A DNA stretch of 57,280 bases, from sequence record PP627281.1; one strand, written 5' to 3'. This stretch comes from Escherichia phage KS_W4. The position numbers were made by a program, and so were the translations under genes. Positions 18,296 to 57,272 of this stretch are shown here, one piece after another; within the stretch, counting starts at the first letter, position 1, and every line of letters begins with the position of its first letter. Below the pieces are notes generated by a model that had not been told where the DNA came from, did no database searches, and saw only the letters and a program-made list of their open reading frames with translations.

Positions 18296-18324
18296 TTAAC
18301 CCCTCAAACGAGGGGTTAATTTTC
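18296..18324. terminator. bidirectional rho-independent terminator
   Basis: TTAACCCCTC-AAAC-GAGGGGTTAA followed by TTTTC; lies between the + tip gene and the - lipoprotein gene. Confidence 0.7.
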
Positions 18325-18556
18325 AATAATCAATTACACAGTTTGAAGGTGAACCAATTCTTCGGTATTCATGATCAATCTCATGGCACCATTGTCCAGT
18401 CATTGGAAGCTTTTCGGTATCATAAATTAAAGAACCGTTACCATCACGGTCTAACGGTTTTGGAATAACGCCGGAATTAGGTTTACCCGTATTTAGACCG
18501 TTACCACATGCAGTGAGGGATAAAGTTAATGCCAGCATAATTAAAGCGCGTTTCAT
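18323..18556 (-). CDS. Cor-like lipoprotein (putative superinfection exclusion)
   Basis: 77-aa ORF with signal peptide and lipobox LTAC-G; opposite strand inside the tail module, as in T1/phi80-type cor genes. Confidence 0.5.
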   Translation of the reverse strand: MKRALIMLALTLSLTACGNGLNTGKPNSGVIPKPLDRDGNGSLIYDTEKLPMTGQWCHEIDHEYRRIGSPSNCVIDY

Positions 18557-18638
18557 TGGGACTCCTTTGTGTTGTTGTCAAGGTTCAATTCTAATATACT
18601 TGTTGTGTTGAGTAAGTCAAATAAATGTGGGAGATATT

Positions 18639-19799
18639 ATGGCAACTCGTTTACGTGGTACTTTAGTTGATGGTTTAAATAAACCAATTGTCAACGCTAC
18701 AGTTGCGCTTTTAGCAAAAGGGAATAGCTTATTGGTATTGTCCGGCAGTGAAGCTATCTTTAAAACAAGCGCAACCGGAACATATGATATTACAGTCCAA
18801 ACAGGCTATTACAAGGTTATTATCGGTCCGCAAGGTAGCGAGCCTTATAAAGCTGGTGAAATTGCTATTTACGCGGACAGTAAAGAAGGTACGCTGAATA
18901 ACTATTTAACTTCCTGGGCACCGGAAGAGTTAACTCCGGAAGTTATTGCACAGGTTAAAGATTTAGTTTCACAAGCTGAGACAGCTAAGAATGCTTCAGC
19001 TTCGTCAGCTACTAAATCCGAGCAGGAACGAGTTAAAGCAGAAGCTGCTGCTAAAAAGGCGGAAGATACTGCTAACGGTATGAAAGATTCTATTGGTCTA
19101 GCTAACAGACCTCGTCATATTGAAGATATCACTGGAAATCCTGCAAGCTTCCTTGGGTTTATACGCATTCTAAGAGCCACTACCGTAGGATATCCGTCTA
19201 TTGCCAGCGCAGATAACACTTTAGCTGGTTTTATTTCCCCAATGGATGGAACGCCAGGCTATATTGGTTTATTTGTTGGCGATGTGACTGGAACAGTTTA
19301 TAGTTACCGATGGGTACAAACGAAGGGTGCTTCATGGTGGAAAAGTGCTCTTTACAGTCAAATTGATAGATATATTCAGCTGGCTAGCGGTGAGACTCAG
19401 ATGAAGAGCGGTAATGCTAATTACCATCTATACATTAACGATCTGCAAGGATGGGGAGCCTATGATAATATTAATAAGCGGTTTATACCCCTGCCAGTTG
19501 CCAAAGGCGGTACAGGGGCGCTCACAGACGCGGATGCTCGTACAAACTTACGCCTCGGTGCTAATGATACACCGCAGTTCAGAAACCTTAATCTTGTTAA
19601 CGTAGCAGACACAGCTCAAGCCCCTTCCGGTATTGTGAGCGGTTATTTAAATAATAGTTCTGGAGTTCAAAGATGTCGCTACCGCATATATTCTGAGATA
19701 CGCGGAGATAACAAAGCGTGGTTAACCTTACACCTTCAATCAGACACAGCAACAAATAAATATGCTGGTTTAAGTGTGGATGGTAAATTTCATTGGTAA
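18639..19799 (+). CDS. tail fibre protein
   Basis: RBS GGGAGAT before ATG at 18639 (ORF track starts at GTG 18627); contains WGAYD...IPLP...GGTGA...TNL motif also found in the next ORF. Confidence 0.55.
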   Translation: MATRLRGTLVDGLNKPIVNATVALLAKGNSLLVLSGSEAIFKTSATGTYDITVQTGYYKVIIGPQGSEPYKAGEIAIYADSKEGTLNNYLTSWAPEELTPEVIAQVKDLVSQAETAKNASASSATKSEQERVKAEAAAKKAEDTANGMKDSIGLANRPRHIEDITGNPASFLGFIRILRATTVGYPSIASADNTLAGFISPMDGTPGYIGLFVGDVTGTVYSYRWVQTKGASWWKSALYSQIDRYIQLASGETQMKSGNANYHLYINDLQGWGAYDNINKRFIPLPVAKGGTGALTDADARTNLRLGANDTPQFRNLNLVNVADTAQAPSGIVSGYLNNSSGVQRCRYRIYSEIRGDNKAWLTLHLQSDTATNKYAGLSVDGKFHW

Positions 19800-21333
19800 C
19801 GCTATAAGTCTATCAGATGTACAAACGTCCAAAGTAAACCTACAGGTAAATAGATTCCTGCAAGCTACAGGCGAAACTGATGTGGTTAACCATGCAGGGA
19901 CAGCTCAAATTTTTATCACTGATAATAAAAATTGGGGGGCTTACGATAAAGAATTAAAGCGTCATATCCCTTTGCCCATTTCACAGGGTGGGACTGGAGC
20001 GGTTACTATTGGTGACGCTAAGACAAATTTACAAATACCTTCTGTTGGTGCTGGAGACTGGTTGGAGATTGCTGCTCCTTCTGGCGTTGAAGCGGGGAAA
20101 TATTATCCAATTGTAATCAAAGCTCAATATGCCTCTTTATATGCTTCTGGTTTCTTTATAGATATACAAACTAGAAGCTCTAGAGGTTCAGATCCTATGA
20201 ACTGTTGTACATTTAACGGATTCATACGAACAGGTGGTTGGTCGGATAGGAAAGACGCTGGCTATGGATACTATAACCGATATGGTTCTAATGAGCTTGC
20301 TTTAAAATGCATATTGGTATCCGCTAAGAATGCTGAAGACAATATAGCTGTATATGTAGAAGGTAGAGCATTCCCAGTGAAAATGCGCATACCTCAATTT
20401 TGCACAGCTACGGCAGTCGCTTCAGCTTCTACATATGGTGAAGTGACATTTGCTTGGGGTACATCCAATCCTGCTACAGATTCAGTTGGGGTAAATACCC
20501 TATTTGATTTCTCTTTAAATAGAGTTGGTTTTTATCAAGCATCTACTGAAGGAAACTATTATATTGGTAACGGCCAACGTATAGTTCTTTCTAATGGGAT
20601 GTCCGTAGGGGATGAATTAACCTTAACCACACCTAAGATTACTTTCAGTGGCACAGTAGCAGCGGGTAACGGTTTTATTGCGGATGGGACGTCTGTATCC
20701 AATGCTACTTTTTATAGTCGTTATCGTGTCGGTGATACTGTTTACGGTGCGGAGTTCCGGGCTAGTGAGAATGCAGCCCAAGTTATTGTCGGAGACCCAG
20801 CAGGAACTAATCATCAATTCTTCAACTTTAATCTTAATGGTACATTTAGCGCGCCAAACGGTTTATTAAGCTCCACTGGTGTTGATTGGACGTTACGTCG
20901 GGACGCTACCGATTCAACTACCATGTTCCCACACCAGAAGGTTAGCTGGCTTAATGCTGGCTGTGAACCTATGGGCGATGGAAGGGTTCATTACTGTTGG
21001 ATTATGGGAGTGATACCGCCTACGCCTGGCACTATCGAACGACCCGTGAATGTGATGTATGTCGGCTTCCACCAGTTTAAAATCACGATCGCTCCAAACT
21101 CCATTAGTCAGTCTGATCTTGATCGTATGCACGTTTACGTCAGCGATGGTACAGACTTTGCAGGTGATTTTATTAATAAGTTTCTTGGTATGCAACCTGA
21201 GCAACCTGTAGAAGCTCGCGAGCACATTAGCCCGTGGCCGCCAATGATTGATCAGGAAGTGTTACAGCCAAAGACCGCTCAAACGGCCCCTCAGAAACCG
21301 GAGCAGAAGGTGAAACCAAATGACGAAGAATGA
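19780..21333 (+). CDS. tail fibre protein 2 / receptor-binding candidate
   Basis: about 517 aa; starts (GTG 19774 or ATG 19780) in a different frame overlapping the upstream fibre stop; N-terminus repeats the WGAYD...GGTGA...TNL motif. Confidence 0.5.
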   Translation: MVNFIGNAISLSDVQTSKVNLQVNRFLQATGETDVVNHAGTAQIFITDNKNWGAYDKELKRHIPLPISQGGTGAVTIGDAKTNLQIPSVGAGDWLEIAAPSGVEAGKYYPIVIKAQYASLYASGFFIDIQTRSSRGSDPMNCCTFNGFIRTGGWSDRKDAGYGYYNRYGSNELALKCILVSAKNAEDNIAVYVEGRAFPVKMRIPQFCTATAVASASTYGEVTFAWGTSNPATDSVGVNTLFDFSLNRVGFYQASTEGNYYIGNGQRIVLSNGMSVGDELTLTTPKITFSGTVAAGNGFIADGTSVSNATFYSRYRVGDTVYGAEFRASENAAQVIVGDPAGTNHQFFNFNLNGTFSAPNGLLSSTGVDWTLRRDATDSTTMFPHQKVSWLNAGCEPMGDGRVHYCWIMGVIPPTPGTIERPVNVMYVGFHQFKITIAPNSISQSDLDRMHVYVSDGTDFAGDFINKFLGMQPEQPVEAREHISPWPPMIDQEVLQPKTAQTAPQKPEQKVKPNDEE

Positions 21334-21604
21334 AGGTATTGATAAAGTTGTTGAAGGGCTTTCTATTCGCGCTCATGTTATAGCAGATGAAGGTCATGAT
21401 CAACTTACTATTATGAAATCCGCATTCAGCGATTTCAAGTCGCTTGGAAACTTAAGCGGGTTAATGACTGTGATGTCGACCGGAAAATTAACCCAGCAGC
21501 AAATCAGTCTAGCGCAACGTATTGCTGTTAAAGTTATTGCGGTACTTGGGATGATTGAAGCCGAAAAGCCCAGTTCCAAGCAGGATAACGAAAGCGACCT
21601 TTAA
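21320..21604 (+). CDS. hypothetical protein (possible fibre assembly factor)
   Basis: 94-aa ORF overlapping the end of the fibre gene; RBS AAGGTGAAA. Confidence 0.4.
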   Translation: MTKNEGIDKVVEGLSIRAHVIADEGHDQLTIMKSAFSDFKSLGNLSGLMTVMSTGKLTQQQISLAQRIAVKVIAVLGMIEAEKPSSKQDNESDL

Positions 21605-21615
21605 GGAGGTCTACT

Positions 21616-21819
21616 ATGTGTGGTAATACTAACCGTTGCTGTTTAGGCAGTCCTGCAACACAAGCAGGTATACTTCAGGGGCAATTGGCTCAAGCAGCGT
21701 GTAATTGCAAGACGTTTCAACCAGTAGCGCCAACTCCGTTGTTTGTGAATGCTTTTGCACCGCCTGTTTTCAATACTTTTGGCGTATACCCATACGGTGC
21801 TTTCTTTCGTATATTCTAA
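21616..21819 (+). CDS. hypothetical Cys-rich small protein
   Basis: 67-aa ORF with GGAGG RBS; last gene of the + block. Confidence 0.45.
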   Translation: MCGNTNRCCLGSPATQAGILQGQLAQAACNCKTFQPVAPTPLFVNAFAPPVFNTFGVYPYGAFFRIF

Positions 21820-21826
21820 GAAGAGA

Positions 21827-21850
21827 AAAGGGGCAAACGCCCCTTTCTTT
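21827..21850. terminator. bidirectional terminator between convergent blocks
   Basis: AAAGGGGC-AAAC-GCCCCTTTC hairpin between the end of the + block (21819) and the end of the - block (21849). Confidence 0.65.
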
Positions 21851-22127
21851 AACGCTTATGAAAAGCTGACAGGATTGCAAGTGTTACAGCACCCAATCCG
21901 ACGACGGTAGCATAAGTGAGTTGATGTTGAACTTTAACAAAACCGTAATAGGTGCTAGGGATCTCCACAATCCCAAACGCCATAGCAAAGCTGGTTCCAA
22001 GCAGTGCGACAGCAAGGGCGCGTAATAACGCCCTGCTCATTGCTGTGAAACCTTTCTCGTTACTGTCTCCGGTCATTATAACCACAATAATAAGAAACAG
22101 AGCAACAATTACTAGCAAGTATCCCAT
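21849..22127 (-). CDS. hypothetical membrane protein
   Basis: 92-aa hydrophobic ORF (ATG 22127; track begins at TTG 22130). Confidence 0.4.
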   Translation of the reverse strand: MGYLLVIVALFLIIVVIMTGDSNEKGFTAMSRALLRALAVALLGTSFAMAFGIVEIPSTYYGFVKVQHQLTYATVVGLGAVTLAILSAFHKR

Positions 22128-22333
22128 CAACGTCTTCTCCTGTACATGTATTGATCATAAGTAGTCGCAATAATAGTGACTGGCCAGCAAACAAGTATGC
22201 ATAGAAGACTCACAATTTTCTCCCAACGTTTCTTATGAGCTAGCGCATAATCATAATTATTCCAACAAAAGAAATAAGTCATTGCTGCAATCACAGCACC
22301 AATAATGAAATAAATAACTACATATTCATTCAT
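22127..22333 (-). CDS. hypothetical membrane protein
   Basis: 68 aa from ATG 22333 with GGGAG RBS; two hydrophobic segments; C-terminal RRRR. Confidence 0.4.
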   Translation of the reverse strand: MNEYVVIYFIIGAVIAAMTYFFCWNNYDYALAHKKRWEKIVSLLCILVCWPVTIIATTYDQYMYRRRR

Positions 22334-22515
22334 TAAGTAAACTCCCATTCTAAAGTATTACGATAGCTTGATGGTACATAACGCCCAGGACGAGGATCAA
22401 AACTTTTAACGGAAAATTCCAAAGTTCCTGCGCTATATAGTTGTACTTTTTGCCCGTCCCACGGTCCGCCAATTAGCTTAAAAGTCTGTCTGTAACCTTT
22501 TGCTGCTCTAGCCAT
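22333..22515 (-). CDS. hypothetical protein
   Basis: 60 aa from ATG 22515 with AAGGAG RBS; preceded by a terminator-like hairpin ACCCGCG-CGAA-CGCGGGT. Confidence 0.4.
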   Translation of the reverse strand: MARAAKGYRQTFKLIGGPWDGQKVQLYSAGTLEFSVKSFDPRPGRYVPSSYRNTLEWEFT

Positions 22516-22558
22516 ATTCACTCCTTAAAATACCCGCGCGAACGCGGGTATTATTTTA

Positions 22559-22765
22559 TTACGCTTCCGGTGATTCCGGAGTTGGCTCATCTGGAACAAC
22601 AATAACGTCGGCTAAAACTTTCAACGCTTCTTGCTGCTCAGCGGTCATATTATTCCAGTAATAGACGTGAATGTAAACTACTGGTTTATCCCCATGTTGC
22701 CACGGTTCGCGACTTACTACATCCACACCTAAATCACTTGCTACGCTCTTTTCTTTACCAGCCAT
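22559..22765 (-). CDS. hypothetical acidic protein
   Basis: 68-aa ORF with AAAGGGG RBS. Confidence 0.45.
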   Translation of the reverse strand: MAGKEKSVASDLGVDVVSREPWQHGDKPVVYIHVYYWNNMTAEQQEALKVLADVIVVPDEPTPESPEA

Positions 22766-22797
22766 GCTAATATACCCCTTTAAGGTTTTACACGCAG

Positions 22798-23091
22798 CTA
22801 GCCCCCAAAAGTACCCCTATGATCAAGGGTTCTAATGCGCTGCTCCAGCCAACGTGCGTTCTTTTCAAAATGTTTATTGGTACGAGCTGCTTTGCACGCA
22901 TCAATAATACCTAACTCACATCCAAGCTGCGTTTGTCCCATCACGTAAGAATGAGTTAACATGCTGGATACAAGGTCTTCACATTGTAACTTAATAGGAT
23001 GGTCTTGGCATAGTTTCTTTGCTGCATCTTTTAAATCCACAGCTTGGACACCAGGCGCTATCAGCAAAGTTACGAGTAATAAACGTTTCAT
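22798..23091 (-). CDS. hypothetical secreted/periplasmic protein
   Basis: 97-aa ORF with N-terminal signal peptide (MKRLLLVTLLIAPGVQA) and several Cys. Confidence 0.45.
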   Translation of the reverse strand: MKRLLLVTLLIAPGVQAVDLKDAAKKLCQDHPIKLQCEDLVSSMLTHSYVMGQTQLGCELGIIDACKAARTNKHFEKNARWLEQRIRTLDHRGTFGG

Positions 23092-23375
23092 TATGCTTTC
23101 CCTTTACGACATAAGGCTTGAAGTTCAAGAAGCGCATCAATGTCTTCCTGTGGAGTTACACCAACGTGAATTGGATATTTAGCGCGACATTCGTAGCCAA
23201 CGTCAACAGTGTGGTTAATGTAGCCGTAAACACATCCACCAATAACAGTGAAGATAAGCGCAACAATCATTGTAAGGTATTTACCTTGTTTGCGTTCTTC
23301 ATTTTGTTTATTAAGCTGACGGTTAAGTTCCACCGCGTCAATTTTACCTTTATTGTAATCGTCTACTAAGCTCAT
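23091..23375 (-). CDS. hypothetical membrane protein
   Basis: 94 aa from ATG 23375 with GAGGAG RBS; one hydrophobic segment; sits just after the polymerase terminator. Confidence 0.45.
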   Translation of the reverse strand: MSLVDDYNKGKIDAVELNRQLNKQNEERKQGKYLTMIVALIFTVIGGCVYGYINHTVDVGYECRAKYPIHVGVTPQEDIDALLELQALCRKGKA

Positions 23376-23400: not shown

Positions 23401-23429
23401 TATATTAAAACAGACCCGCGAAGGGTCTG
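23401..23429 (-). terminator. rho-independent terminator after DNA polymerase gene
   Basis: On the minus strand: CAGACCC-TTCGC-GGGTCTG followed by TTTTAATAT. Confidence 0.6.
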
Positions 23430-23439
23430 CAAGTAGAAT

Positions 23440-54843: not shown

Positions 54844-55029
54844 ATGACCAAACTATACGCCGGATTGTTTTTATTTGCGACGTTAATGTTCGCTGGGCTT
54901 TATACCTATACAGTAGTCGAACAACCTTCCACGGTTATCCGAATCTTTGCAAGTACAGGGCTTTGTATCTGTCTTATTCTATTTGTTTTATGCATTGTTA
55001 TTATCCAAGACCAAAGGAAAATTAAATGA
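54844..55029 (+). CDS. small membrane protein (2 TM)
   Basis: 61 aa with two hydrophobic helices; RBS AGAGGGG. Confidence 0.4.
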   Translation: MTKLYAGLFLFATLMFAGLYTYTVVEQPSTVIRIFASTGLCICLILFVLCIVIIQDQRKIK

Positions 55030-55490
55030 CCACAATTGCGTTTGATGGAAAAGTATTAGCTGCGGACCGTGGAGTTATGCGCGGGGAAGCTGTGACTGCT
55101 TATAAGAAAGTTCATAGCGTAAATGGACATCGTGGACGGTTTTTACTGGGATTGTGCGGCCTTACAGCATTTACCGATCAGGTGTTGCGTTATTTTAATA
55201 GCGCGGAACCTGTTAAGTTCCCTGATATTAAACTTTACAGCAAAGATGACGATTACGGGCAAACTTGCGGTCTTGCGGTTACTCCGGAAGGTACTTGCCA
55301 TTTTATTTATAATGATGGTACTTTGAGCGAACCCATGCTGGATGGATGGGGATCTGAGGGTAGCGGTTGTGTGTTTGCTGCTGGCGCGTTAGCTGCTGGT
55401 GCAAGTGCGAGCGAAGCTATTGAGTTAGCAATTAAACACACCACATGCGCATTCCTGGGAGTTGATACAATATCATTTGAGGGTTTTTAA
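55026..55490 (+). CDS. HslV/proteasome-like Ntn-hydrolase (putative threonine peptidase)
   Basis: 154 aa beginning MTTIAFDGK (compare HslV MTTIVSV...); GLCGLTAF and GSEGSGCVFAAGALAAG segments align by eye with HslV GFAGGTADAF and GSGG regions. Confidence 0.4.
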   Translation: MTTIAFDGKVLAADRGVMRGEAVTAYKKVHSVNGHRGRFLLGLCGLTAFTDQVLRYFNSAEPVKFPDIKLYSKDDDYGQTCGLAVTPEGTCHFIYNDGTLSEPMLDGWGSEGSGCVFAAGALAAGASASEAIELAIKHTTCAFLGVDTISFEGF

Positions 55491-55833: not shown

Positions 55834-56271
55834 ATGGCGCTTCAACCTCGTGGTATTCGTAACAACAATCCAGGTAACATTCGCTGGGGTGATAATTGGC
55901 AGGGATTGGTCCCTGTTGATAAGCGGACCGACAAATCTTTTGCACAATTTACGCAACCGATCTACGGCATCCGCGCTCTGGCGAAAGTCCTGACCAACTA
56001 CACCAAACGTGAAGGCTTGCCCAATGTGGGTAAGAAAAACATCGACACTGTACGTGAAATTATCGCTCGCTGGGCCCCGCCTAACGAAAACGATACGGAA
56101 GCGTATATTCGTTCTGTTGCCAAAGCAATTGGTGTTGAACCTAACGATCCAATCAATGTCTTCGACAAGACGATAATGTCAGGTTTGGTAAAAGCAATCA
56201 TTCGTCATGAAAATGGCATGATGCCTTACACGGACGACGTAATCAACCGCGCTATTGCAATGGTAATTTAA
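55834..56271 (+). CDS. putative endolysin / cell-wall hydrolase (family not recognised)
   Basis: 145 aa from ATG 55834 (GGAGGA RBS); immediately upstream of the holin and spanins; motif GIRNNNPGNIRW; functional call is positional. Confidence 0.3.
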   Translation: MALQPRGIRNNNPGNIRWGDNWQGLVPVDKRTDKSFAQFTQPIYGIRALAKVLTNYTKREGLPNVGKKNIDTVREIIARWAPPNENDTEAYIRSVAKAIGVEPNDPINVFDKTIMSGLVKAIIRHENGMMPYTDDVINRAIAMVI

Positions 56272-56307
56272 CTGATGGGGCGTCAGCCCCTTTTTATTGG
56301 AGGGAAC

Positions 56308-56652
56308 ATGTTCAACTCATCAAACGAACATTGGGCAGTTCTAGCGGGGTTTGCTCTGATTTCCCTCATTGGGGGAGCTCTCGGTTACGTCATGCGTACA
56401 ATTGACGCTGGTAAGAAGGTACGGATAAGCATTGCATGTCTTGAAGGTTTATCCGCCGCGTTCTTCGGCGTTATAATGTACGCGATCTACAGGGAGTTTA
56501 ATATCAGCCTTTGGTTCGCTTTTGGCCTTGCTGGCCTATTCGCTTGGGCGGGTTCACGTGCTACGCTAAAAGCTCTAAAGTCGCTTCTAGCATCGCGGAC
56601 AGGGATCAAACTCGACTCAGAGGACTGCAAACATGAAAATGATTCTAAATAA
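56308..56652 (+). CDS. holin (class I-like, 3 TM)
   Basis: about 114 aa from ATG 56308 (GGAGGGA RBS); three hydrophobic segments and a charged C-terminus; directly precedes the spanins. Confidence 0.5.
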   Translation: MFNSSNEHWAVLAGFALISLIGGALGYVMRTIDAGKKVRISIACLEGLSAAFFGVIMYAIYREFNISLWFAFGLAGLFAWAGSRATLKALKSLLASRTGIKLDSEDCKHENDSK

Positions 56653-57109
56653 CTTCTTCAGCTTCATAAAAGCTAAGCCCCGTCTGTTTATCGAGTACCT
56701 GATGATCGGCGCGGTGGTGTTTTTATGCGGAGTGGCCGCTTACCTGTGGTCACAAAACGAGCTTAACAAATCAAATTTAAGCTTGGCTGAAGAACGTTTA
56801 ACCGTTGTGGAGAAGGACAATGCTAAGCTGAGCGAAGCTGTTGTATTTCTTGCTGCACAAAGGGAGAAAGATACGGACTCTTTCAAGAAACTAACTTCTG
56901 CAATTCAGGACGAACAACATAACCACAAGTTGCTTCAGGACAAGTTGCAGACACTGGAGAAAAGCAATGCTGACGTCAAAGCTTATCTTAACGAGCGTAT
57001 TCCTGATGATTTGCGCAGGTTGCTCGACGCAGACTCAACCTCCCCCAGCTCCACAGATAGTGAAGGTAAGACTACCCGCGCATCTACTGGTGGAATGTCG
57101 GGAAGTTGA
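56633..57109 (+). CDS. i-spanin (Rz-like)
   Basis: 158 aa; N-terminal TM helix followed by a coiled-coil periplasmic domain; overlaps the holin end and the o-spanin. Confidence 0.6.
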   Translation: MKMILNNFFSFIKAKPRLFIEYLMIGAVVFLCGVAAYLWSQNELNKSNLSLAEERLTVVEKDNAKLSEAVVFLAAQREKDTDSFKKLTSAIQDEQHNHKLLQDKLQTLEKSNADVKAYLNERIPDDLRRLLDADSTSPSSTDSEGKTTRASTGGMSGS

Positions 57110-57272
57110 GAAAATTCCTTTGGTTTACACAAGAGATATTATCCGACGTTTACAGGATACAGAAACTGCTCTGACTGAATGTAAGCTAAGGGTTAAGGAA
57201 ATCATACGCTATGAAGCTGAAAATGTTTCGCTTGATTTTGTAGGATCAAGCAATTATATTCAGCCTAAATAG
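56967..57272 (+). CDS. o-spanin (Rz1-like lipoprotein)
   Basis: 101 aa; signal peptide with lipobox ICAGC; Pro-rich segment TQTQPPPAPQ; starts inside the i-spanin gene in another frame and extends past it (overlapped architecture). Confidence 0.6.
   Translation: MLTSKLILTSVFLMICAGCSTQTQPPPAPQIVKVRLPAHLLVECREVEKIPLVYTRDIIRRLQDTETALTECKLRVKEIIRYEAENVSLDFVGSSNYIQPK

What the first reader, a model, noticed from the sequence alone, without database searches (positions are those of the whole stretch)
21849..23375. Terminal cluster of six small membrane/secreted protein genes downstream of the polymerase terminator
After the terminator at 23401-23429, six short ORFs (60-97 aa) encode proteins with TM helices or a signal peptide and Cys residues. 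They form their own unit ending at the bidirectional terminator at 21827-21850. Genes like this at module boundaries are commonly accessory (exclusion, envelope modification, host takeover) and are poorly characterised.
Basis: inference. Interest (0 to 1): 0.45.

Follow-up and report, generated by a model that had tools for sequence, protein, structure and literature searches.

The report
Accessory small-gene island after phage polymerase
Six real but uncharacterised small genes, four coding for membrane or periplasmic proteins and two for soluble ones, sit between the DNA polymerase gene and the tail-fibre genes of a Seurat-like E. coli phage; they are dispensable extras of unknown function, which is ordinary for phage genomes.

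Summary
The window is the genome of Escherichia phage KS_W4, a Seuratvirus. The six minus-strand ORFs at 21849-23375 are real genes, equivalent to Seurat gp29-gp24. All have Shine-Dalgarno sites, are intact in more than 30 phages, and are under purifying selection (pN/pS 0.05-0.29).

Only four are envelope proteins:
- A: one TM helix, with a conserved Cys pair in the periplasmic tail.
- B: signal peptide plus four conserved Cys.
- E: two TM helices.
- F: three TM helices.

C and D are soluble and have no Cys.

The flanking hairpin terminators are confirmed. A third conserved hairpin (22529-22552) splits the cluster into A-B-C and D-E-F.

The island is absent from the sister genus Nonagvirus. 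Parts are missing in natural isolates: C in yong3, E in STP-SP5, and E and F in VogelGryff. A published CRISPR deletion of the C homologue in phage CSP1 left plaque turbidity unchanged. The "accessory" label is therefore supported.

It is not the lysis cassette, which lies at about 55.8-57.3 kb and was validated in CSP1. It is also not one system: D and F occur alone in unrelated phages, and only A-B is a fixed pair.

No family, fold or literature match gives a function. My best guess, with low confidence, is that these proteins act on the infected cell's envelope, for example in superinfection exclusion.

The parts
23404..23432 (-). Intrinsic terminator hairpin after the DNA polymerase gene (stem-loop 23410-23430, then a T-run). 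It is embedded in a sigma-70-like TTGCAG-17 nt-TTTAAT arrangement that may act as a promoter for gene A.
   Evidence: The terminator scan found it. Fold energy is -13.6 kcal/mol, z -3.7. The hairpin and both hexamer-like flanks are kept in STP-SP5 and yong3, where protein A is only 43-51% identical; the stem changes are C-to-T, giving G-U wobbles. The promoter role is inference only.
23091..23375 (-). Gene A (94 aa). Bitopic inner-membrane protein: conserved basic N-terminal 34 aa (MSLVDDYNKGKI..ELNR), one TM helix (about 35-53), and a 40-aa C-terminal tail with an invariant Cys pair (C63, C89). Predicted topology is N-in, C-out.
   Evidence: ORF; equals Seurat gp29. Hydropathy peak 2.01. pN/pS 0.15. 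Homologues in STP-SP5 (about 50%) and yong3 (about 45%) keep the Cys pair and the N-terminal motif. Falls in phrog_26834, unknown function.
22798..23091 (-). Gene B (97 aa). Sec-type signal peptide (MKRLLLVTLLIAPGVQA|VD) followed by an 80-aa mature periplasmic protein with four conserved Cys (C-x8-C-x20-C-x7-C). Its start overlaps A's stop by 1 nt.
   Evidence: ORF; equals Seurat gp28. The AXA-like cleavage motif and all four Cys are kept in STP-SP5 and yong3. pN/pS 0.29. Only three 90%-identity clusters turned up in 5.8 billion proteins. The AF2 model is poor (pLDDT 54, four helices) and has no PDB neighbour.
22559..22765 (-). Gene C (68 aa). Acidic soluble protein with no TM helix and no Cys. 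Variable: absent in yong3, and a 59-aa frameshift variant in CSP1.
   Evidence: CSP1_029 is the 59-aa homologue. Its CRISPR deletion left plaque turbidity unchanged (PMC13577005).
22529..22552 (.). Conserved GC-rich hairpin between C and D. On the minus strand it is followed by UAUUUU, and D's AAGGAG ribosome-binding site comes directly after. It could be an internal terminator, an attenuator or an RNA-end stabiliser.
   Evidence: -15.8 kcal/mol, z -3.6. It is kept in STP-SP5, where one stem pair changes on both sides (G-C to U-G). It is annotated as a terminator in SA126VB. A sub-threshold Rfam hit (Leu_leader, 21.9 bits against a cut-off of 50) reflects only the hairpin.
22333..22515 (-). 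Gene D (60 aa). Soluble protein with a basic N-terminal tail and a compact five-stranded beta domain carrying an invariant GGP..G..L...T..G.Y..W motif. It belongs to a wide family of uncharacterised small phage proteins.
22127..22333 (-). Gene E (68 aa). Two-TM membrane protein with an Arg-rich C-terminus (YRRRR). Its start overlaps D's stop by 1 nt. Variable: absent in STP-SP5 and truncated to 41 aa in VogelGryff.
   Evidence: Found only in the 33 close E. coli-type Seuratvirus records by tblastn. A weak positional counterpart exists in yong3 (pairwise E 0.004).
21849..22127 (-). Gene F (92 aa). Three-TM membrane protein with a conserved loop YYGFVKxQHQLTYA. It is the most constrained gene of the six. 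Its start overlaps E's stop by 1 nt.
   Evidence: pN/pS 0.05. Three hydropathy peaks. Homologues at 50-58% identity occur in 9NA, Sasha/Sergei, eiAU and Bas82, always as the last gene of an operon. None were found in 185,579 bacterial species genomes. Absent in VogelGryff.
21826..21847 (.). Bidirectional intrinsic terminator shared by the leftward cluster and the rightward tail-fibre operon.
   Evidence: It folds on both strands (-14.6 and -15.5 kcal/mol, z about -3). Equivalent hairpins occur in STP-SP5 and yong3 and are annotated in Seurat and SA126VB.

Best explanation
This is a Seuratvirus-specific island of dispensable small genes. It was inserted where the leftward replication/DNA-modification operon meets the rightward tail-fibre operon. 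It reads as two translationally coupled groups, A-B-C and D-E-F, separated by a hairpin.

It is a mosaic rather than one machine. The only fixed pair is A plus B. D and F are independent families that also occur alone in unrelated phages. C and E come and go.

Four products are targeted to the cell envelope: A (bitopic, with a disulfide-capable tail in the periplasm), B (exported, two probable disulfides), E and F (polytopic inner-membrane proteins). C and D stay in the cytoplasm.

What is shown: gene reality, purifying selection, predicted localisation features, dispensability, phylogenetic distribution and the hairpins.

What is inferred: the genes are co-transcribed with, or just after, the early/middle replication genes, by read-through of the polymerase terminator or from a weak promoter embedded in it. 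Their products then change the infected cell's inner membrane and periplasm. I consider the most likely purpose to be protecting the infected cell from secondary infection or envelope damage (superinfection exclusion at the periplasm or inner membrane). Lysis is not the purpose, because a separate, validated cassette handles it.

My confidence is about 0.8 for 'accessory, non-essential, largely envelope-targeted, not the lysis cassette' and about 0.25-0.3 for exclusion specifically. The single confidence value of 0.4 is a compromise between the two.
For: - **Real genes under constraint:**
- **Localisation features:** TM helices and signal peptide. Cys are conserved only in the predicted periplasmic parts of A and B across 30-50% identical homologues.
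- **Coupling:** 1-nt stop/start overlaps for A/B, D/E and E/F, with ribosome-binding sites upstream.
- **Island absent elsewhere:** missing at the same pol/tail-fibre junction in Nonagvirus PD328 and nearly so in PSTCR4.
- **Natural losses:** C, E and E+F are lost in plaque-forming isolates.
- **Experimental deletion:** deleting the C homologue gave no plaque-turbidity phenotype.
- **Separate lysis cassette:** endolysin, holin, i-spanin and o-spanin lie at about 55834-57272. The CSP1 homologues of the holin and endolysin lysed cells when expressed.
- **F is phage-only:** it occurs only in virulent siphophages of Enterobacterales and not in bacterial genomes.
- **Independence of D and F:** for D; for F.
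Against: - There is no functional evidence for exclusion. Every family hit is 'unknown function', and none of the hits returned was an exclusion family.
- The phage already carries a Cor/Llp-type candidate exclusion lipoprotein at 18323-18556. That reduces the need for another, although T4 and T5 each use several.
- The timing of expression is unknown.
- The promoter inside the terminator matches the -35 consensus at only 3 of 6 positions, and the standard scan did not call it.
- C and D are cytoplasmic and do not fit an envelope role.
- The mosaic distribution means a single shared function is unlikely.
Confidence: 0.4

Rival explanations
1. Lysis-timing module. A (one TM helix, periplasmic tail), B (periplasmic), C or D (small cytoplasmic proteins) and the holin-like E and F modulate the phage holin. 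The analogy is T4 lysis inhibition, where periplasmic RI and cytoplasmic RIII act on holin T.
For: - The set of compartments matches: cytoplasm, membrane and periplasm.
- E has a class II holin-like build, with two TM helices and an Arg-rich tail. F has a class I-like three-TM build.
- Related phage CSP1 shows lysis suppression encoded just across the bidirectional terminator, and one of those proteins binds the holin.
Against: - CSP1C keeps all six genes intact yet lyses fast and makes clear plaques (abstract).
- Lysis suppression was rebuilt in BL21 from CSP1_020-022 plus holin and endolysin, without these genes.
- Deleting the C homologue did not change plaque turbidity.
- F's distribution (9NA, Sasha, eiAU) does not follow this holin family (Queuovirinae and Pseudomonas phages). 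VogelGryff keeps the holin without F.
- No holin or antiholin family was hit.
- The genes are not in the lysis cassette.
Confidence: 0.15
2. Host takeover or counter-defence. The small proteins each bind a host target, such as a division, secretion, protease or membrane-bound defence protein, to improve infection in natural hosts. Laboratory K-12 would then show no phenotype.
For: - The genes are dispensable on K-12 yet under strong purifying selection, especially F (pN/pS 0.05).
- F's conserved loop and TM2-TM3 residues are invariant across phages of E. coli, Salmonella, Edwardsiella and Hafnia, which fits a conserved host partner.
- D belongs to a broad family of small phage proteins found in early-gene arrays.
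- D exists in several alleles, and the A-E block has been swapped by recombination (L011), as is common for arms-race genes.
Against: There is no similarity to any known anti-defence or takeover protein, and no PADLOC-related hits. dN/dS gives no sign of positive selection. The idea is untestable with these tools.
Confidence: 0.25
3. Membrane anchoring or support of replication and DNA modification. The genes belong functionally to the polymerase/deazaguanine operon they follow.
For: They share the strand of the DNA polymerase, clamp and DpdA/Que genes and lie directly downstream. Read-through of the polymerase terminator is possible.
Against: - Nonagvirus has the same polymerase and a deazaguanine pathway but lacks the island.
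- STP-SP5 has an extra gene between pol and the hairpin, while the hairpin stays with gene A.
- F occurs in 9NA-like phages and in eiAU, in gene neighbourhoods unlike this one (9NA-like phages have no recognisable deazaguanine locus according to PMC11990801).
- Parts of the island are lost in viable phages.
Confidence: 0.05
4. The ORFs are chance open frames or decaying pseudogenes.
For: They are short, have no known domains, and some are lost in some relatives.
Against: All six have pN/pS well below 1. They stay intact at dS up to more than 1, have ribosome-binding sites, and show conserved Cys patterns and motifs.
Confidence: 0.01

Closest known systems
T4 superinfection-exclusion pair Imm (small inner-membrane protein) and Sp/Spackle (97-aa periplasmic protein with a signal peptide)
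   Same: A lytic phage makes a small polytopic membrane protein together with a roughly 97-aa exported, disulfide-containing helical periplasmic protein. Both are non-essential in the laboratory. (The T4 properties are from general knowledge, not from a tool result here.)
   Different: The PHROG scan of A-F returned no family annotated as an exclusion protein. B's model is too poor to compare, and no PDB chain matched it significantly. The T4 genes are not clustered behind the polymerase gene. No exclusion phenotype is known here.
T4 lysis-inhibition proteins RI (periplasmic), RIII (cytoplasmic) and holin T (one TM helix, periplasmic domain with a disulfide)
   Same: The same three compartments are covered by small proteins. 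A resembles a miniature T in topology: N-in, one TM helix, and a Cys pair outside.
   Different: There is no sequence relationship. The phage's real holin is a separate protein elsewhere, described as a three-TM class I holin. CSP1C carries intact A-F and is not lysis-inhibited.
Holins of class I (three TM helices) and class II (two TM helices)
   Same: F and E have the size and number of TM helices of class I and class II holins. E has a positively charged C-terminal tail.
   Different: They are not next to an endolysin or spanin. They match no holin Pfam or PHROG family. F has only HKR as a tail. E and F are lost in viable phages that keep the true holin.
Phage morons and accessory islands at operon junctions, for example the Cor/Llp-type lipoprotein gene in the same genome at 18323-18556
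   Same: Small genes bracketed by terminators sit at a convergent junction, are variably present among relatives and are absent from the sister genus.
   Different: B lacks a lipobox: it is cleaved after VQA and has no Cys at +1. The island has six genes in two coupled groups rather than a single moron with its own clear promoter.

Membership tests
Holin (class I / class II) | Small protein with two or three TM helices and a charged, hydrophilic C-terminal tail | tested here: inconclusive
   E has two TM helices and ends ...YRRRR. F has three TM helices but its tail is only HKR.
Holin (class I / class II) | Encoded in the lysis cassette next to the endolysin and spanins | tested here: not met
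   The lysis cassette is at about 55834-57272, 33 kb away. The CSP1 homologues of that holin and endolysin are the functional ones.
Holin (class I / class II) | Sequence membership in a described holin family | tested here: not met
   No Pfam, NCBIfam or annotated PHROG holin family was hit by E or F.
Holin (class I / class II) | Lethal, PMF-sensitive hole formation on expression | not testable with these tools
   This needs induction and energy-poison experiments.
T4 Sp (Spackle) / Imm superinfection exclusion | Sequence homology to the Sp or Imm families | tested here: not met
   PHROG scan: A, E and F hit only unknown-function families. B hit phrog_23744 (unknown function) and, weakly, phrog_1256 and phrog_21025 (E about 1e-3). 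None is an exclusion family.
T4 Sp (Spackle) / Imm superinfection exclusion | Sp-like architecture: cleavable signal peptide, small helical periplasmic domain with a disulfide | tested here: met
   B has MKR-hydrophobic-VQA|VD, four conserved Cys and four predicted helices. This is a resemblance in architecture only.
T4 Sp (Spackle) / Imm superinfection exclusion | Structural similarity to solved Spackle | tested here: inconclusive
   The B model has pLDDT 54. Foldseek against the PDB gave no match with E<=0.001.
T4 Sp (Spackle) / Imm superinfection exclusion | Blocks DNA entry or tail lysozyme of a superinfecting phage | not testable with these tools
   This needs plating and DNA-injection assays.
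Cor/Llp-type exclusion lipoprotein | Lipobox with Cys at +1 of the mature protein | tested here: not met
   The predicted cleavage site in B is VQA|VDL, and the first Cys is at residue 28. A true lipobox protein (LTAC) is encoded elsewhere, at 18323-18556.
CSP1 lysis-suppression set (CSP1_020-022) | Homology to, or requirement alongside, CSP1_020/021/022 | tested here: not met
   Those genes lie on the other strand beyond the terminator in CSP1 and are absent from this window. Suppression was reconstituted without A-F.
Rho-independent terminator | GC-rich hairpin followed by a U-run, located at a gene end and conserved in relatives | tested here: met
   Three hairpins at 23410-23430, 22529-22552 and 21826-21847. 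z -3 to -3.7. Conserved with wobble or two-sided changes. Termination efficiency was not measured.

The most novel reading that the evidence does not exclude
The invariant A-B pair, perhaps together with cytoplasmic D, could be a previously undescribed trans-envelope module. A's conserved cytoplasmic N-terminus would be linked to a disulfide-bonded periplasmic A-tail/B complex. The module would sense or block events in the periplasm of an infected cell, acting as a new exclusion or lysis-timing sensor. Separately, F would define a new, strongly constrained three-TM protein family shared by four genera of virulent enterobacterial siphophages and aimed at a conserved inner-membrane host target.
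Probability: 0.15. Interest if true: 0.6.

Novelty: new member of a known kind. Interest (0 to 1): 0.3.

Why it matters
The result clarifies annotation for a common group of coliphages used in collections such as BASEL and in therapy screens.
- The six 'hypothetical proteins' behind the polymerase gene are genuine, selected and mostly envelope-targeted. They are dispensable and are not part of the lysis system.
- The work identifies which parts merit experiments. These are the invariant A-B pair, the very constrained F family that also occurs in 9NA-, Sasha- and eiAU-like phages, and the widespread D fold.
- It gives ready natural controls: VogelGryff lacks E and F, STP-SP5 lacks E, and yong3 lacks C.
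- If any of these proteins proves to be an exclusion or anti-defence factor, it would add a new family to a short list. As it stands, this is a typical block of unknown accessory genes.

Tried and rejected
1. **Missing holin, antiholin or spanin genes.** Rejected. A complete cassette lies at the right end of the genome, was functionally tested in CSP1, and its holin family does not co-occur with F.
2. **F as a functional partner of the convergent H94/G67 (and CSP1_021-023) module.** The two travel together in Seuratvirus, 9NA, eiAU and Bas82. But H94 is in 161 phage records against 53 for F, including Nonagvirus, which has no island, and T1-like phages. F also occurs without the module in L016-L018. 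No obligate link exists.
3. **Domain and family searches.** Pfam, NCBIfam, PADLOC and PHROGs gave only unknown-function PHROGs and sub-threshold noise. One IMG record names E 'ArgO' and CSP1C names F 'glutamate receptor'; both look like spurious automatic labels.
4. **PDB sequence search with B and D.** Nothing was found.
6. **Wider homologue hunts.** B, D and F in the 5.8-billion-protein set, F in IMG/VR and in bacterial genomes, and A in metagenomes returned only Seuratvirus-like or the already known relatives.
7. **Rfam and tRNA scans of the region.** Nothing beyond the hairpin was found.
8. **Literature.** Nothing on these genes exists except the CSP1_029 deletion. The 9NA genomics paper is not held.
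9. **An Ivy-like lysozyme-inhibitor loop in B (CQDHPIKLQC).** The loop is not conserved in yong3, so I dropped the idea.
Full report
**Identity of the window.** The 2-kb region matches 33 phage records at 91-98% identity, all Seuratvirus-type coliphages (Seurat, CAjan, slur01, BASEL Bas21-25, CSP1/CSP1C). Exact protein look-ups place D and F on a single NCBI contig of 57,280 bp, Escherichia phage KS_W4. There the six products are WZL04377-WZL04382, all named 'hypothetical protein'. The genome has the usual Queuovirinae layout. Packaging, head and tail genes run rightward. The polymerase, clamp and DpdA/Que genes run leftward. The two arms converge at about 21.8 kb.

**Checking the observation.** I call them A (23091-23375), B (22798-23091), C (22559-22765), D (22333-22515), E (22127-22333) and F (21849-22127). 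The stop/start pairs A/B, D/E and E/F overlap by one base.

Codon alignments against nine close relatives and three diverged ones (L011, STP-SP5, yong3) show intact frames. Summed pN/pS is 0.15 (A), 0.29 (B), 0.17 (C), 0.23 (D), 0.26 (E) and 0.05 (F). dN/dS stays at 0.03-0.38 even where dS is about 1. These are therefore real, selected genes.

Hydropathy analysis gives this picture:
- A has one TM helix (residues 35-53).
- B has an MKR-hydrophobic-VQA|V signal peptide.
- E has two TM helices.
- F has three TM helices.
- C and D have no hydrophobic segment.

Cys residues are conserved only where a periplasmic location is predicted. These are C63 and C89 in the tail of A and the C-x8-C-x20-C-x7-C pattern in mature B. 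Both patterns are kept in homologues only 30-50% identical. C, D and F have no Cys.

**Hairpins and transcription.** The hairpin after the polymerase gene (23410-23430) and the bidirectional one after F (21826-21847) are confirmed. They are much more stable than shuffled sequence (z -3.0 to -3.7). A third hairpin at 22529-22552 lies between C and D, immediately before D's AAGGAG. It is equally stable, is conserved in STP-SP5 with a two-sided stem change, and was annotated as a terminator by others in SA126VB. The cluster is thus A-B-C | hairpin | D-E-F.

The pol-A hairpin is conserved almost base for base in STP-SP5 and yong3, including its flanks TTGCAG and TTTAAT spaced 17 nt apart. In STP-SP5 an extra gene has been inserted between pol and the hairpin, and the hairpin stayed with gene A. 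That layout suggests a terminator with a weak sigma-70-type promoter built around it. This is inference: the -35 element matches only 3 of 6 positions, and the standard scan did not call it.

**Comparative genomics.** A, B, D and F are present in every lineage that has the island. Identities to STP-SP5 are about 50%, 67%, 67% and 79%. Identities to yong3 are about 45%, 30%, 47% and 58%.
- C is missing in yong3.
- E is missing in STP-SP5. In yong3 it has only a weak positional counterpart.
- In VogelGryff (Bas25), a plaque-forming K-12 phage, a different tail-fibre block replaces everything from the fibre genes through F and the distal half of E.
- In Nonagvirus PD328 the polymerase gene is followed directly by the convergent tail-fibre genes. 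In Providencia phage PSTCR4 a single 51-aa ORF follows it.

The island is therefore a genus-level insertion at an operon junction, and parts of it are dispensable.

Experimental support comes from Kim & Ryu 2025 (PMC13577005). CSP1_029, the 59-aa frameshift form of C, was deleted by CRISPR-Cas9 with no change in plaque turbidity.

The metagenomic relative L011 has a polymerase and an F that are 98% identical to the window's. Its A-E are only 68-88% identical, with high dS and low dN/dS. That pattern points to allelic replacement by recombination rather than positive selection. D alone exists in at least three C-terminal alleles among otherwise close phages.

**Not one system.** F has 50-58% identical homologues in Salmonella phages 9NA and Sasha/Sergei, Edwardsiella phage eiAU and E. 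coli phage Bas82. In each it is the last gene of an operon before a convergent terminator. No homologue was found in 185,579 bacterial species genomes.

D belongs to a family of about 36 representative small proteins with a basic N-terminal tail and an invariant GGP..G..L...T..G.Y..W core. These occur in varied contexts in Klebsiella, Erwinia and Vibrio phages. A and B occur only together and only in the Seuratvirus clade.

**Search for function.** Pfam, NCBIfam and PADLOC gave nothing above noise. PHROGs placed each protein in an 'unknown function' family. The only annotated PHROG hit was a weak one for B (phrog_1256, E 8e-4), which includes its signal peptide. PDB sequence searches were empty.

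**Lysis is handled elsewhere.** The right end of the window encodes four lysis proteins in tandem:
- an endolysin at about 55834-56271;
- a multi-TM holin at 56308-56652;
- an i-spanin at 56633-57109;
- an overlapping lipobox o-spanin at 56967-57272.

In CSP1 the homologous holin and endolysin were used as the lytic pair. Lysis suppression was traced to CSP1_020-022, which lie on the other strand in the tail-fibre region. Suppression was reconstituted without A-F. CSP1C has intact A-F and lyses rapidly. The holin family is shared with Nonagvirus and Pseudomonas phages but not with the other F-bearing phages.

I also tested whether F is tied to the convergent H94/G67 module with which it often travels. 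H94 is in 161 records and F in 53, and each occurs without the other. No functional link can be claimed.

**Most likely mechanism.** The following points are shown:
- Four proteins are built for the inner membrane or periplasm, and two for the cytoplasm.
- The genes are tightly packed on the early/middle strand.
- They are bracketed and split by conserved hairpins.
- They are selected but dispensable in the laboratory.
- They are confined to virulent phages.

From this I infer that they are made during the replication phase and alter the infected cell's envelope. Among the roles such proteins have in other lytic phages, exclusion or protection against secondary infection fits the periplasmic A-B pair and the polytopic E and F best. 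I put this at only 0.25-0.3. Counter-defence or host takeover (0.25) and lysis timing (0.15) remain open. A role in replication or modification is unlikely (0.05).

The phage also carries a separate Cor/Llp-like lipoprotein gene. Any exclusion role here would act at a different step.

**Verdict.** The 'accessory' reading is supported, and the specific function is unknown. This is an ordinary kind of feature, a junction island of small accessory genes, made up of uncharacterised families. Interest is modest. The A-B pair and the F family are the parts worth experimental follow-up.

Noticed in passing
window 55834-57272: A complete lysis cassette in tandem: endolysin (about 55834-56271), multi-TM holin (56308-56652), i-spanin (56633-57109) and an overlapping lipobox o-spanin (56967-57272, ...ICAGC). 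In the original Seurat record only the endolysin is named.
   Followed up: partly
window 18323-18556 (-): A 77-aa lipoprotein with a lipobox (LTAC) is encoded on the opposite strand between the J-like tail-tip gene and the lateral fibre gene. It is a Cor/Llp-style candidate exclusion moron with its own bidirectional terminator in Seurat.
   Followed up: no
window 18627-19799 and 19774-21333 (+): The lateral tail fibre is split into two overlapping ORFs of 390 and 519 aa. The last roughly 150 aa of the second ORF equal the C-terminus of CSP1_023. The window lacks CSP1_021 and CSP1_022, the genes needed for lysis suppression in CSP1, so this phage should make clear plaques like CSP1C.
   Followed up: partly
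window 21320-21819 (+); L007, L008, L009, L020: The convergent genes H94 (21320-21604) and G67 (21616-21819), together with the CSP1_021-023 homologues, form a mosaic cassette. It is shared at 53-79% protein identity (lower for G67 and for the eiAU copies) with otherwise unrelated phages (9NA, Sasha, eiAU); H94 alone also occurs in Nonagvirus and T1-like phages. G67 has a Cys-rich N-terminus (MCGNTNRCC) and an aromatic C-terminus (FFRIF). CSP1_021 has a Gly-rich N-terminus and ends in GCC.
   Followed up: partly
L020 33-212 versus window 22559-22765: The 59-aa CSP1_029 is the odd form. The 68-aa version in CSP1C matches the consensus of all other Seuratviruses. The 'mutation' reported in CSP1C therefore restores the family reading frame rather than disrupting it.
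   Followed up: partly
L011 4650-6001: A metagenomic Seuratvirus has a polymerase and an F that are 98% identical to the window's, but its A-E are only 68-88% identical with high dS. This is a recombinational allele swap confined to the island. D alone shows at least three C-terminal alleles among close relatives.
   Followed up: partly
L018 5934-6210: The F homologue in one 9NA/Sasha-like viral contig is split by a frameshift into 51-aa and 78-aa pieces. This is either decay or an assembly error.
   Followed up: no
window 55026-55490 (+): An HslV-like peptidase gene lies just upstream of the lysis genes. In Klebsiella phage vB_Kpn2-P2 a D-family ORF lies shortly downstream of the equivalent HslV gene rather than after the polymerase gene.
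   Followed up: no
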